Of a stretch of DNA of 64,000 bases, positions 1 to 12,000 are shown one piece after another. Every line of letters begins with the position of its first letter. Within the stretch, counting starts at the first letter, position 1. The stretch covers positions 410,354-474,353 of the forward strand of contig OZ245054.1 of the NCBI GenBank assembly GCA_965224715.1. The letters run 5' to 3'. The position numbers were made by a program. The DNA is from Spirochaetota bacterium (lineage in GTDB: Bacteria; Spirochaetota; UBA12135; COTS27; CAXSBA01).

Positions 1-3000
1 CCCTGAAAATAGACTCCTACCCTCCACGCGTATTGAGAAGGCATCGACTCCATCTGTTATTAAGGTCATAATAAGCATAATATCACCAGCACTCACAGGA
101 TTATACTGCGATTGCACCGGAAAGATGTAATACTCATCGGCATGGAGGGCAATGTCATAATCTGTACCTGCCAGAGTGGAATCCACCACCGTGACAGCAT
201 CTTCAGCAGGGTAACCTGAAGTTACTGCCGTCGCATCCGTAGAAAAATCCAGAAGTTCTTTTACGGTTACTCCATTGTTCTCCATCCCATAAAGTGTATA
301 TTGGGTTGAGGGCTTTAGCACCGATTCGGCAATCCAGGCATTTGTTCCAGTGGCCGCAATCCATGTATCTGTTTGGTCTTTGGCGCTGTCGAGAATGATT
401 CCCGTATTGCTCGTCATTCCGGTTCCCAATGTTTTGCCTGGGTCGGTATCTTTGGCATAGCTTATTATGGGGGCATTCAACCTTTGAGCGATAAGCACAT
501 TGATGGAGTTAGTGCTTAGATTGCGTTTCAAGGCTCCGTCCGTCATTTCCACAGTGGTGGGGACTGTTTTGCCTTTCTCCTTTACGGCGAGATGATAGTT
601 GGATAAGTTTTTATTAGCCTCGATAGTGAACAGCACATAGGAATCCCGTATATCGGTAGTGGCTCTTTTGGGGATTTCTGTTACTGTGATTTCAGTCTGA
701 CTACTTGTTTTTGCTTCGTTGCTTTCGGTAGCATTACAAGCAATAATCAAGATTGCTGTAAATACAATGACCGTGAATTGTTTGAGAAGAGAAAGATATT
801 TGAGTCGTGAGCTTTTATTTAGATGAATTGAGGGGGGGGGGGGGGGGTGATCTTAGTTGAAGGAACGATCAACTCCGAATTTTTAGTTAGTTTTCTTTTT
901 AATTTTTTCATGGTACATGACCTCCGTATATTTTTTTATAATAATATATTATTATAACATACTAACTGTGATTTGTCAAGGGGATGTTTAACAGTTTGTT
1001 ATGTCTGATGATTGTAGTCTCATTCGTAATACTGACCTTTATGAGAATATATGGAAACTATGCTTATTCACAATATTAAGCTACGTAGCACTACTGCTGT
1101 TTCACTAAAACAGTATACAATTCCAATTCTGTCGGCAGGGTACCCCCAGCAGCTAGGATATATCTAAATCCATAGTAAAAACTATCCTCGTTGTGAGTAG
1201 TATCTGTCAGCAAATAGATTCCTCCATTTGCATAAGTCTCAACATGGGAACCCATATCCTTAAAAAGATACAGCATATCTGTATACCCGATATCGAGAAT
1301 CCCCATAGTTCCTTTTTCCCCGGGGTTATTCATGTGTAAAACACTATCGCCCAAGCTCCTATCAGAGAATATCAGATCTAGCCTGTGTATTTCATTAGTT
1401 ATGTTCATCTGCACTTGTAAGGGGAAAATATACAACTCATTGGCATTGACCGCAATTTCGATGTAATCCTTTTCCAGAGTACTGTCCGCATAACTTAATT
1501 TCGGTCCTGTAGTTGGTACTTCCAGGGCAGGATCTGTTACAAAGGTTTGTAGCACCTCAATCTGATTTCCACCTTCTTTCATGCCATAGAGGGTGTATCC
1601 TGTGGAAGCCTTAAGGATGGATTCTTTAATCCATGCTTCCGTCCCTGTGGCATTGCCATCATAGATTAAACCAAAATTTTGTTTTGGATGAAATCCCTTC
1701 AACATATCCGTGCCTAATATCTGATGATTGCTATTAGAAAAATATTGTTTTGCAAAAGTCACCATCGGTGCATTCAACCTTTGAGCAATGAGCACATTGA
1801 TGGAATTTGTACTTAGATTGCGTTTTAATGCTCCTTTCGTCATTTCCGTAGTGGTGGGAGCTGTTTTGCCTTTCTCCTTTACGGCGAGATGATAGTTGGA
1901 TAAGTTTTTATTAGCCTCGATAGTGAACAGCACATAGGAATCCCGAACATCGGTGGTGGCTCTTTTGGGGATTTCTGTTACTGTGATTTCAGTCTGACTA
2001 CTTGTTTTTGCTTCGTTGCTTTCGGTAGCATTACAAGCAATAATCAAGATTGCTGTAAATACAATGACCGTGAATTGTTTGAGAAGGAAAAGATATTTGA
2101 GTCGTGAGCTTTTATTTAGATGAGTTCTTGGGGGGGCGATCTTATTTTGAGGAGGGATCAGCTCCGATTTTTTAGTTGGATATAGTTTTCTTTTTATTTT
2201 TTTCATTGAATGAAATTTTCTAATAATGCTATTATAACATACTCACCGTGATTTGTCAACAAGAGAATTGTAACAGTCGCTGTTTTACAGGAGGCTTTGG
2301 GTATCAGAAGAAATCCGGCCGAAAACCAGCCGGAAGCCTATGGGTTAGAGTTAGCGGAAACGCTTATAGCCCCAAAAATGGCGATGCATCCTTTTAAGAG
2401 ATCACCGAAGTCCGGGGAGAGGGTAAAAACCCATTCACTGTTGAATCTTGAGGTTTTGAAACGCAGGAGCTGGATAGATAGTACCAGTATTCATATTCAA
2501 TGAATAATGAAAAACATCAGATTTACTTCGATGATCGGTATTCATCAATACATACGCTCCTTTCTCCCACATTTCCTCCCAATCAGGCGGGTTCCCTACA
2601 GTTTTAAATAGAAATAAATATTCATCGGGATCAATTTGTGGTCCAACAGAAGTCCTATTACTCAATAATACGCTAGCAATATCAGAGGAATTCAGTTGGA
2701 CAGAGTAAACTTGAGCTTGTTGTTGGATCTGTGTTTGAATCGGAAAGATATACCATTCATTAGTATGTACCGCAATTTCAAGATTTCCTCCTACTAATGT
2801 CGTATCTATTACGTCAAGTTGATCAGCAGGTTCGTTTGCTGAAGAAAGTGGGGTTGCATCAGTGGTAAAAGTTAGCAGCTCACTAACCTCCGTTCCCCCG
2901 TTATCCATGCCATAGAGGATATATTGAGTTGATTCTTTTAACACTGATTCAGCTATCCAGGCATGAGTGCCGCTTGCAGGTGTCCATGAGCCGGAACCGT

Positions 3001-9000: not shown

Positions 9001-12000
9001 AAATTTTTTCATTGTGATATAAAAATTTCATAGATTTGGCGATGACAAAAGGTTCATTATGTTTTTCTTTTTTCTCATCGCCATATCAATAACTTTTATA
9101 GTATATTCCCCATAGTATTATTTTAAATGCTGCTTTTGCCTTTGTACCAGTGTTCCGACACCGTATGAATACATGATGTCGGAATGCGTTGCATAATCTA
9201 CTCTTGAATGTTCAAATGGGAAAACATTATAATAGATGTGGTTACACCACTTGTGAAAGTATGGAAAGTACCAAAATTCAAAGGGCTTGCTTTGTTGTTC
9301 ATTTGAGAAGTACTCATAAGTACATATGCTCCCTTTTTCAGCGTCTCTTCATCTGTACTTTTCTGAGTAAACATTAGTAGCTGATGATGGTAACCGGCAT
9401 CTATAAAACCACCTACTGCCATCGAGGAGAGAAAGATTGTTATATTTCCAATTGCCTGACCAGAAAAAATTACATCGAATGAGTCAAATGCATTTGTTGA
9501 GTGACTTTGCAGGGGAAAAATGTAGTATTCGTCTGCATGAACAGAAATCTCAACACGCTGCGCCTCAAGGGTAGTATCTATGAATTTCACACCGCTGGTA
9601 GCCCCAGTTATTGATGACGAATCGATGTCTGTGGCAAGAGTTAGCAGCTCAGTTACAGTGTTTCCGCCTTTATTCATGCCATAGAGTGTGTACTGAGTGG
9701 ACGGTTCTAATACAGACTCAGCAACCCAAGCGTTACTGCCGCTTGCAGTTTTATCCAAAATCATGGCAAAGTCTGTATCCCATGAAGCTCCAATCATATC
9801 TGTTCCAAGTGTCCTGTGAGCATTGTCCGCAAAGTATTGTTTTGCAAAAGTCACCATCGGTGCATTCAGCCTTTGAGCGATGAGCACATTGATAGGCTCG
9901 GTACCGAGGTTTCGCTTCAATGCGCCGGAAGTCATTTCCGTAGTGGTGGGGGCTATTTCACCTTTCTCTTTCACCGCAAGATGATAGTTGGATAAATTTT
10001 TATTAGCCTCGATAGTGAACAGCACATAGGAATCCCGCACATCGGTGGTGGCTCTTTTGGGGATCTCTGTTACTGTGATTTCAGTCTGACTACTTGTTTT
10101 TGCTTCGTTGCTTTCGGTAGCATTACAAGCAATAATCAAGATTGCTGTAAATACAATGACCGTGAATTGTTTAAGAAGAGAAAGATGTTCGCTGCGTGAG
10201 TCTTTATTTAGACAAGTTCTTGGGGGGAGGGGGGGGATGATATTAGTTAAGGGAGTGATCAACTCCAATTTTTTAGTTAGTTGTAATCTTTTCATTGGAT
10301 GATCCTTTTAATGAATTTTCTAATAATATTATTATAGCATATAGTCTGTGATTTGTCAAGAGAATTTTTAGTTTTCTATAGTTTCTTAGTAATCATTAAA
10401 ACCATTTTTCTAACTTCACCTCTAGAATTTACCAAACTTAAAGAAAACTCCAACTTCTGGACCCCAAGCATCATAACTATCCATATAATCGTTATTTCCC
10501 CCAAGAGCGAAACGATACCCTCCGGTAAGTGAGATAATGAAAAAAGAAGAGATATTAAATTCCACATTGAAGCGAGGAATTATTCCAAACATAGCATTAT
10601 CATTTGATTTGTTCGATGAGTCCTTTTTTTTGATGTTGATCCCCATTGCCACCAAATCAATGGGAATAGAAAGGTGAACAATTTTGGGTAATCCCCAGGT
10701 ATATTCGAAATAAATCCCTCCATATCTCATTTCGATTTCAACAGTCTGTGATACGCCACTACTGTCGTCATAACCACGTTCCACCTTGTGGGTAAATTCA
10801 GCCCCAATGAGGCCGATCGTAAATTTCCTGTTGATAAATAATCCTCCCTTCCCTCCTATCAAAACTCCCCATTTACCGGCAAAGGAAGTAACTCTAACTT
10901 CAAGACCTCCATACCCACTAAATTTGAAGTTACCAGATACAGAAGTTGAATCTGGTAAAGTTGAGATAAAGTTATCATTAGATGACTGAATAATTTGATT
11001 TTTTTTTTCTTGAGCCCAAAGATTAGCCAATAAAAGTGAAAAGATAGTTATTGTTGCTAAAATAGCTTTTGTGCTCATTACTATTTTTTATGGGATGATA
11101 TAACAGATTTCACCTCCCTGATATTTTATGTTTGTTATTCAATCAATATATGTTTGGCACTTCTTAAACGCTTAATTTTAAATTAAATAAAAGAAAATTC
11201 GTTATAAATTGAGTAATAAAAATAAGTCGAATAACTTATATTTAGGGTAGTCATTATGAAGTTAAAACTATAGTCTATTAGTGATCATTAAAATTACTTT
11301 TCTAACTTCACTTCTAGAATTTACCGAATTTAAAGAAGACCCCAGCTTCTGGACCCCAGGCATCATAATCGTTTAAATAATCGTTATCTCTTCCGAGAGC
11401 AAAACGATATCCTCCGGTAAGTGAGATAATGAAAAAAGAAGAGATATTAAATTCCACATTGAAGCGGGGAATCACCCCAAACATGGCGTCACTATTCGAA
11501 CCTAGATTAAGGGTATCATCCGATGAGCCCATTTTTTTAACCTTGACTTCCATCGCCACCAAATCAATGGGAATAGAAAAATGAACAATTTTGGGTAATC
11601 CCCAGGTATATTCGAGATAGGTTCCTCCATATACCATGTTGATTTCAATAGTTTCATTTCTGTAATTACGTTCTGCATTATCGGCAAATACACCTCCCAT
11701 GAGACCGACCGTAAAATTCCTATTGATAAGTAGTCCCCCCCTTCCTCCTATCAAAACCCCCCATTTGTCGGCAAAAGAAGTAGCTCTAACTTCAGGGCCT
11801 CCATATCCACTAAATTTGATTTTTTTAGATCCAGATGCCCATCCCGCTAAAGTTGAGATCGGATAGTCATTTTCCTGTTTCCAGAGAGCTGAATTGTTAT
11901 TTTCTTGGGTCCAGAGATTTCCCCAAGTACTTTTTTCGATAACCTTATCTAAGGTTTGGTTGTTGTCTTTTTGGCCCCAAAGGTTAGTTGTCAAGAAAAG

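What a model noticed while it worked through the whole genome (the two positions that open the first line are those of the whole stretch)
1..11819. Portable poly-C phase-variation cassette on a surface-lipoprotein repertoire
This 36%-GC genome holds 83 C/G runs of 13-19 nt, 76 of them at a fixed place in the 5' part of surface-lipoprotein genes. 62 share one cassette (TTGACA-17-TATAAT promoter, GGAGG, ATG, about 20 basic codons, poly-C) placed before the signal peptides of different lipoprotein types (Kelch, Ig, fn3, InlB/Pmp-like, unknown); 14 InlB/Pmp-like genes have poly-G near codon 105-135. It is a slipped-strand ON/OFF system at the top of the known range; the given span is one cluster.
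Evidence so far: Run lengths: 83 at 13-19 nt, none at 11-12, 6 at 9-10. 76 are followed by 265 or more open codons; 30 of these are in frame, 46 out. Cassette consensus over 62 loci, and copies with T-interrupted tracts; lipobox-like Cys after the tract in 57 of 64 by a loose pattern. Close paralogs differ in tract length: 1597166 G17 vs 1800149 G16 (98% over 3.3 kb), 1185308 C18 vs 1761458 C17. The families span about 160 genes and 13% of the genome. Other class genomes: 17 such runs in G005, 0-3 in the other 8. MutS and MutL are present. The finding spans contig positions 407312 to 422172; this window holds only 410354 to 422172 of it.
(Added by a program. Inside this text positions count along the whole contig: contig position 410,354 is position 1 of the stretch shown here. 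"Call 12" and the like, gene names such as g00115 and contig names such as C1 are that model's own, and its searches are not shown. The text may have been shortened before it was handed on; [...] marks where a part breaks off. The agent that wrote the report below was given it as the finding of a first reader that could run no searches.)

Follow-up and report, generated by a model that had tools for sequence, protein, structure and literature searches.

The report
Swappable poly-C switch on spirochaete lipoproteins
About sixty surface-lipoprotein genes of an uncultured, likely mollusc-associated spirochaete start with the same promoter, start codon and run of 13-19 C's inside their export signal, which likely lets each gene flip on or off by copying slips and likely also serves as the joint at which front ends are swapped between unrelated genes.

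Summary
Observation confirmed. The 2.11-Mb, 36%-GC spirochaete genome holds 83 C/G runs of 13-19 nt and none of 11-12. Sixty intact lipoprotein genes of 17 N-terminal classes share one front end: promoter, RBS, ATG, about 20 codons, poly-C. The run lies inside the signal peptide; 57 of 60 have no other Shine-Dalgarno-backed start. 24 of 60 are in frame, against 14 of 15 copies with short or interrupted runs. The window holds seven copies: four long (all out of frame), three locked (all in frame). New here: front ends and gene bodies are reassorted at the run (2 of 33 pairs stay linked across it, against 55 of 70 at control points), and both wrong frames stop within 8 codons in 53 of 60. Best reading: classical slipped-strand phase variation, carried on a recombining dispersed repeat. 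Switching was not seen: only contigs were available and no listed piece bridged a long run. The mechanism is known (Opa, mycoplasma P68); the scale matches the top of published ranges. This scan noted the poly-G subfamily of this genome and similar banks in other uncultured genomes before.

The parts
832..979 (-). Module of gene A: promoter 979-951, GGAGG, ATG at 911, leader, C16 at 847-832; out of frame (30-aa peptide); passenger of 344 codons runs off the window's left end
1091..2259 (-). Gene B: promoter 2259-2231, ATG 2206, short C7 at 2136-2130, in frame, 371 aa; no Shine-Dalgarno motif visible before the ATG; body 97% identical to gene E over the first 300 nt of mature sequence but module only 68% identical
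   Evidence: C7 bridged without differences by contigs of runs X1, X2, X4
2435..3526 (-). Gene C: interrupted run (C4-T-C9, 3468-3455), in frame, 363 aa; no full-consensus -35 box; predicted two beta-sandwich domains, the first FN3-like
3738..4133 (-). Headless 3' fragment of a gene of the same family
4233..5617 (-). Gene D: promoter 5617-5589, ATG 5550, C15 at 5486-5472, out of frame (31-aa peptide); passenger 412 codons with He_PIG Ig domain; module 94% identical to gene A's although the bodies differ
5729..6901 (-). Gene E: promoter 6901-6873, AAGGA, ATG 6837, C15 at 6779-6765, out of frame (27-aa peptide); passenger 344 codons
7107..7538 (-). Second headless 3' fragment of the same family
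7592..8985 (-). Gene F: promoter 8985-8957, GGAGG, ATG 8919, C16 at 8861-8846, out of frame (28-aa peptide); passenger 417 codons with He_PIG Ig domain
9198..10359 (-). Gene G: promoter 10359-10331, ATG 10295, interrupted run (C8-T-C6, 10236-10222), in frame, 365 aa
54262..63300 (-). Second cluster in the window: five module-bearing genes (C16 in frame, C15 in frame, C16 out, C16 out, interrupted in frame), four of them Kelch-propeller type

Best explanation
Each gene begins with a shared 140-nt module (sigma-70-type promoter, RBS, ATG, about 20 codons, C13-19) that encodes the first part of an unusually long lipoprotein signal peptide, and replication slippage in the C run likely switches each gene ON or OFF by changing the frame, while recombination between module copies likely swaps front ends between gene bodies. 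SHOWN: the anatomy; the run upstream of the hydrophobic region and lipobox Cys (Cys at residue 50-106, mostly 52-62); a mix of in-frame and out-of-frame long runs in the assembly; copies with short or T-interrupted runs almost all in frame; stops in both wrong frames right after the run; module and body reassorted at the run. INFERRED: that lengths change between cells at a high reversible rate; that ON gives a lipidated surface protein with 4-6 prolines in the cleaved leader, so run length leaves the mature protein untouched, and OFF gives a peptide of about 27-34 aa; that swaps are RecA-type crossovers or conversions within tandem clusters; that run interruption or shortening locks a gene ON; that long runs offset an intact MutS/MutL; that the purpose is bet-hedging of adhesin-like surface proteins against host defence or phage. 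A second, independent poly-G switch sits at codon 103-137 of 14 Pmp/List_Bact-repeat lipoprotein genes.
For: Run-length gap and excess. Lipobox 60 of 60 against 0.35% control, no other SD-backed start in 57 of 60; Lgt present. In frame 24 of 60 long against 14 of 15 short or interrupted, Fisher p=2.7e-4, and 24 of 60 is not different from one third, p=0.28 (loci are kin, so p-values overstate). Assembly is not generally frameshifted at homopolymers: C/G runs of 6-10 nt 1 shift against 238 read-through, random places 41 against 2308; long contig pieces of runs X1 and X2 match with 0 differences. Only 26% of Pro codons are CCC, so pure runs are not explained by polyproline coding. Of 14 locus pairs with identical 15-nt flanks, 5 differ in run length. 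Both wrong frames stop within 8 codons in 53 of 60 against 15% at control points; the commonest motif is TAA-purine-TAA, 46 of 75, whose variable base changes the amino acid but keeps both stops. Reassortment: of 33 pairs at least 95% identical for 120 nt after the run, 2 are at least 92% identical before it, against 25 of 36, 22 of 22 and 8 of 12 at points inside the body; of 18 pairs alike before the run, 2 are alike after it; 11 of 26 pairs with modules at least 90% alike have unrelated N-terminal bodies. Three Pmp-like genes carry the module in front of their own RBS and start, a sign of grafting. Proteins from other assemblies carry the same leader with 2-9 prolines, one apparently called from a shifted start (P0002, P0008, P0009, P0011, P0021). 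RecA present.
Against: No length variant of one locus was seen: the runs laid were contigs only, none of the 32 listed pieces (of 1023) bridges a long run, and the one indel row at a run (8861, 2 letters) sits at its edge and fits a paralogous flank (12 of 26 indel rows shown). There is no control for assembly accuracy at C/G runs of 13 or more; A/T runs of 10 or more show 3 shifts against 38 read-through, above background. In G005 all 17 similar tracts read in frame, though across N's that hide their length. In 3 of 60 genes a native start could bypass the switch, and 18 of 60 have some in-frame ATG between run and Cys. The early-stop statistic rests on about five flank types, not 60 independent cases. 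Expression is unshown: an RNA run gave only short contig pieces.
Confidence: 0.8

Rival explanations
1. Graded rather than binary control: ribosomes (tRNA-Pro re-pairs in any frame on a C run and stalls on polyproline) or RNA polymerase would slip on the run, so every gene is expressed at some level set by run length; early stops and a C-rich downstream stretch could add Rho-dependent polarity.
For: ON state needs 4-6 consecutive prolines; EF-P and Rho present; the 100 nt after the run hold 24 C against 12 G on average; PMC2824730 (passages) raises ribosomal shifting for a poly-G lipoprotein gene; native starts in 3 genes.
Against: Locked copies are nearly all in frame, so frame matters; stops close both wrong frames at once. 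This rival modifies rather than excludes DNA-level switching.
Confidence: 0.1
2. The runs are real but fixed and in frame (a polyproline spacer or regulatory element); the OFF calls are homopolymer miscalls of the assembly.
For: Narrow peak at 15-16 nt (67 of 83); no read-level check possible; all 17 G005 tracts in frame across N's.
Against: Shorter C/G runs are called correctly; CCC is 26% of Pro codons, so pure runs need a DNA-level reason; C6 and interrupted copies show that neither length nor purity is needed for an intact gene; both +1 (22) and -1 (14) offsets occur.
Confidence: 0.06
3. The out-of-frame genes are decaying pseudogenes of an over-amplified family, the run being only the most mutable spot.
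For: Headless fragments and relic modules exist (3738-4133, 7107-7538; contig 10776, 660405, 939429).
Against: Behind the run the frames stay open for 265-1106 codons in 60 genes, with promoter and RBS kept; long pure runs would not be kept by decay alone.
Confidence: 0.04

Closest known systems
Neisseria Opa genes (CTCTT repeats in the leader-peptide coding region; up to 11 genes; PMC3960869, passages)
   Same: Repeat inside the signal-peptide codons of a dispersed multigene surface family; frameshift ON/OFF by slipped-strand mispairing; frequent recombination among copies.
   Different: Mononucleotide C13-19, not a pentamer; about 60 genes; lipoproteins, not beta-barrels; passengers of different domain types share the module.
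Mycoplasma bovis P68 / M. agalactiae P48-like and spma poly-G tracts (PMC2824730, passages)
   Same: Homopolymer at the 5' end joins or uncouples the start codon and a lipoprotein signal peptide; several tracts in a tandem lipoprotein locus of a low-GC genome.
   Different: G8-13 at a few to 8 genes; no shared promoter-leader module on unrelated bodies described in the passages seen.
Chlamydia pneumoniae Pmp and Cpn 1054 paralog families (homopolymer phase variation hypothesised; seen only as cited in PMC4514472, passage)
   Same: Homopolymer tracts across paralogous surface-protein families; closest match for the 14 poly-G Pmp-like genes here.
   Different: Fewer genes and one family each (own recall); the primary paper was not held.
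Campylobacter and Neisseria phasomes (PMC6321876 section 16; PMC5953494 passages)
   Same: Totals of 5-81 and up to 82 repeat-bearing genes per genome, mostly poly-G in ORFs.
   Different: [quoted passage not shown]
Recombinase-driven lipoprotein shufflons (Vpma type; search listing of PMC2268961 and own knowledge)
   Same: Conserved 5' region shared by variable lipoprotein genes and used for rearrangement.
   Different: Here every gene has its own promoter, clusters are single-stranded in orientation, and no recombinase lies in a cluster.

Membership tests
SSR-mediated translational phase variation | Simple repeat far longer than chance, in the coding sequence of one locus | tested here: met
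SSR-mediated translational phase variation | Repeat length sets the frame between the only start and the body | tested here: met
   57 of 60 without another SD-backed start; 3 exceptions
SSR-mediated translational phase variation | ON and OFF lengths both occur with intact bodies | tested here: met
   24 ON, 36 OFF of 60 in the assembly; subject to miscalls
SSR-mediated translational phase variation | Length varies between alleles of one locus | tested here: inconclusive
   contigs only, no long run bridged in listed pieces; paralogs with identical flanks differ in 5 of 14 pairs
SSR-mediated translational phase variation | Reversible switching at a detectable rate without selection (PMC11868660 section 6) | not testable with these tools
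   needs culture or a reporter
Opa-type leader switch | Repeat in the signal-peptide coding region of a multigene family | tested here: met
Opa-type leader switch | CTCTT pentamer and one homologous beta-barrel family | tested here: not met
   poly-C; Kelch, He_PIG, fn3, Ig_Rha78A/Lcl_C, List_Bact/Pmp and unassigned bodies
Recombinase shufflon (Vpma type) | One promoter shared by silent cassettes | tested here: not met
   near-consensus promoter at 59 of 73 loci
Recombinase shufflon (Vpma type) | Site-specific recombinase at the locus | tested here: not met
   4 tyrosine recombinases, nearest 13 kb from a module cluster; no resolvase match; action in trans not excluded
Spirochaetal lipoprotein | Hydrophobic region and lipobox Cys; Lgt in the genome | tested here: met
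   lipidation and surface exposure not shown, signal peptidase II not searched
Non-autonomous transposable element | Terminal inverted repeats and target-site duplications | not tested
   none apparent in the consensus; no dedicated search

The most novel reading that the evidence does not exclude
The module is a self-contained, recombining 'switch head': a dispersed repeat that captures unrelated lipoprotein genes, turns them into independent contingency loci, and, because switchable (C13-19) and locked (C6, interrupted) versions are exchanged at the run, lets the cell change not only which genes are ON but which genes are switchable. The same design would have arisen separately, with an unrelated leader, in another family of the order (G005).
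Probability: 0.35. Interest if true: 0.72.

Novelty: new variant of a known kind. Interest (0 to 1): 0.52.

Why it matters
How contingency loci arise is usually treated gene by gene. Here one module appears to have been copied onto about 60 genes of different domain types, and the switch doubles as the swap point, which offers a testable route by which a large phasome is built quickly in one lineage (the two single-contig genomes of the same family have 1 and 0 long runs). It extends large-scale surface variation to a spirochaete found in mollusc samples, hosts without antibody immunity (own knowledge), which bears on what selects for phase variation. Sixty near-identical switches with run lengths of 6-19 in a mismatch-repair-proficient cell are also a natural series for relating run length and interruption to switching rate.

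Tried and rejected
Reads: four runs laid gave contigs only; holes and ends at the runs prove nothing, since paralogous flanks also break contigs; the row '8861 left out 2' was rejected as a length variant because other rows look left-aligned and a change in the run would then stand at 8846; joints between cassettes are explained by paralogy. Module DNA search over the 10 class genomes: only G000. Pattern scans: metagenome contigs 0 hits; alignment scan of metagenome contigs 0 of 80 candidates confirmed; viral contigs 2 hits, both chance on inspection. Window family profile in 401 phylum genomes: only G000, although a protein search finds relatives in other assemblies. A leader-only protein search found only two own proteins among 20 candidates and missed known carriers, so it is insensitive. 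The genome-contig scan with a neighbouring gene gave one distant hit and no taxonomy. Rfam: 0 matches in the window. ESM Atlas: best 0.83, lead only. Foldseek hits had low TM-scores; the C-terminal domain was not searched alone. Orientation to the replication fork: 12 of 17 clusters head-on, p=0.054, origin poorly placed, dropped. The leader palindrome (41 hits, all in modules) lies 25 nt from the run, too far for a known frameshift stimulator (own knowledge); no role assigned. Literature: ten searches found no paper on this lineage's tracts or on a shared switch module on unrelated genes; the library lacks most subscription papers and no supplements were read.
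Full report
OBSERVATION. The window lies in a single-contig genome of 2,112,975 bases, 36.3% GC. It has 83 C/G runs of 13-19 nt, none of 11-12 and 6 of 9-10; the decay of 6-8-nt runs predicts about 0.1. A profile from 62 seed loci finds 85 copies of one front-end module at E<1e-6. 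Of 82 parsed, 63 have a run of 13 or more; 75 lead into an open frame of 250 codons or more (60 long runs, 15 short, interrupted or absent). They lie in 21 clusters or single sites. Window 1-10359 holds seven copies on the minus strand: four with C15-16, all out of frame (peptides of 27-31 aa), and three with C7 or T-interrupted runs, all in frame. Two more belong to the cluster left of the window. The last 1.4 kb of the given span holds two exported-protein paralogs without the module.

ORGANISM. Two FlaA genes and named RecA neighbours at 68-69% (Spirochaetota) make it a spirochaete of a small class (10 genomes). Runs labelled mollusc metagenome hold the stretch; run X4 (share 0.37) was laid and gave pieces with 0-10 differences. 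Named homologs of the window family come from a Spirochaeta sp. LUC14 record and a Ca. Thiodiazotropha bin, which I recall as clam-associated. MutS1, MutL, RecA, Rho, EF-P and Lgt are present.

ANATOMY. Promoter: exact TTGACA-17-TATAAT in 40 of 73, near-consensus in 59; in the window 6 of the 7 copies score 12 of 12. RBS: GGAGG in 39, AAGGA in 28. After the ATG come about 18-25 codons, then the run, then a basic stretch, a hydrophobic region and a lipobox-like Cys in 60 of 60 (control 0.35%). The Cys falls at residue 50-106 from the module's ATG. In 57 of 60 there is no other start with a Shine-Dalgarno motif, so the module is the n-region of the signal peptide and the run would be removed with it. 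Bodies fall into 17 classes by their first 300 nt, though most share domains in mosaic fashion (72 of 77 link up by any local match): Kelch propellers, He_PIG, fn3, Ig_Rha78A with Lcl_C, List_Bact/Pmp repeats, and many without a Pfam match. The main window family models confidently (pLDDT 83) as beta-sandwiches; the first domain is FN3-like (Z 7.9, rmsd 2.8 over 89 residues, a middling score). Adhesin-like function is inference.

SWITCH. Long runs are in frame in 24 of 60, compatible with one third; short or interrupted ones in 14 of 15. The assembly does not shift frames at C/G runs of 6-10 nt (1 against 238) and only slightly at A/T runs of 10 or more (3 against 38; random 41 against 2308), but no control exists for longer C runs. 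CCC is 26% of Pro codons, so purity is a DNA-level trait. Of 14 pairs with identical 15-nt flanks, 5 differ in length. Both wrong frames stop within 8 codons in 53 of 60 against 15% inside the bodies; this rests on few flank types, but the poly-G family, G001 and most G005 tracts also have early stops. Fourteen Pmp-like genes have a separate poly-G at codon 103-137, 5 in frame and 9 out.

PORTABILITY. Module identity and body identity are uncorrelated (rho 0.03). The most similar module lies within 25 kb for 41 of 73 loci and on the same body class for 25 (8.7 expected), so both duplication and reassortment show. Linkage breaks at the run: 2 of 33 pairs alike after it are alike before it, against 25 of 36, 22 of 22 and 8 of 12 at control points; 2 of 18 in the reverse direction (pairs are not independent). 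In the window, genes A and D share a 94% module with different bodies; genes B and E share a 97% body with 68% modules, one locked (C7) and one switchable (C15). Three Pmp-like genes carry the module in front of their own RBS and start. No recombinase lies in a cluster and clusters are single-stranded, so homologous exchange at the shared repeat is the simplest route (inference).

RELATIVES. The module's DNA is found only in G000 among 10 class genomes, but proteins from other assemblies carry the same leader with 2-9 prolines (5 of 21 read). The single-contig genomes G001 and G002 of the same family have 1 and 0 runs of 14 or more; G001 has two poly-C loci before lipoprotein-like signals. G005, of another family, has 17 tracts with unrelated leaders, most shared among paralogs and followed by lipobox-like signals by eye; all contain N's and all read in frame across them. 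G005 is not among the listed genomes with withheld bases (first 20 shown), so the N's are probably assembly gaps; G005 shows the design but no OFF state.

READS. Only contigs were served. Runs X1 and X2 match long unique pieces with 0 differences; the C7 of gene B is bridged unchanged in X1, X2 and X4; no listed piece (32 of 1023) bridges a long run. Switching is therefore not shown.

COMPARISON. It works like Opa leader switching (PMC3960869, passages) and mycoplasma P68/P48-like poly-G switches (PMC2824730, passages). Counts equal the top of published ranges: 5-81 in Campylobacter (PMC6321876, section 16 and passages), 36-82 in N. lactamica (PMC5953494, passages); 115 genes with observed variation in meningococci (PMC5084427, abstract). 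Runs here are longer than the modal 9-10. By the definition in PMC11868660 (section 6), reversibility and rate must be shown, and are not. C. pneumoniae Pmp and Cpn 1054 families are cited from PMC4514472 (passage). Ten searches found no account of this lineage or of one switch module on unrelated bodies; coverage is partial and no supplements were read. Earlier notes of this scan describe the poly-G family of this genome and banks of 22-90 similar switches in other uncultured genomes; these are unchecked, but suggest the strategy is recurrent and the scale not unique.

VERDICT. Real; a known mechanism (0.8) in a new variant: one promoter-to-run module on some 60 diverse lipoprotein genes, reassorted at the run. 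Interest 0.52.

Noticed in passing
G000 contig 1076084-1076450 (minus strand), outside the window: C16 inside a short leader ORF, in frame, that ends about 50 nt before a lipoprotein gene with its own RBS, next to a tRNA-like gene: a possible leader-ORF type of switch.
   Followed up: partly
G000 contig 231233-231426 (plus strand): One gene has two runs in series, C16 in the leader and C14 ten codons after the Cys; a paralog has an interrupted proline stretch there.
   Followed up: partly
window 33984-34001; G000 contig 1333626: C18/G18 runs in the C-terminal part of two broken Pmp-like genes; the window one lies about 300 nt before an intact 1099-aa Pmp-like gene.
   Followed up: partly
G000 contig 909369: Lone G16 between two genes, unrelated to the lipoprotein families.
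   Followed up: no
window 4140-4260 and 7500-7610: GC-rich repeat of about 100 nt with 7-8 copies, all beside module-bearing genes; here it sits at the 5' edge of the two headless fragments.
   Followed up: partly
module leader, e.g. window 3483-3497: Conserved imperfect palindrome around GATC in the leader, 41 strict matches, none outside modules; possible operator or RNA hairpin.
   Followed up: partly
G000 contig 347997, 939429, 1185251, 10776: Frame changes in A runs of the leader; in 347997 one compensates the C run and gives an open frame. A second slippery site or assembly error.
   Followed up: no
window 10422-11078 and 11314-12060: Two paralogous exported proteins ending in Phe, outer-membrane-like, no Pfam match; a relic module at contig 332634 precedes a similar N-terminus.
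   Followed up: no
G000 contig 1115341 and 1835687: Two of the four tyrosine recombinase genes lie within about 1.5 kb of poly-G Pmp-like genes.
   Followed up: no
L005 (G006:C33): The poly-C context there looks like a eukaryote-type microsatellite region, perhaps bin contamination.
   Followed up: no
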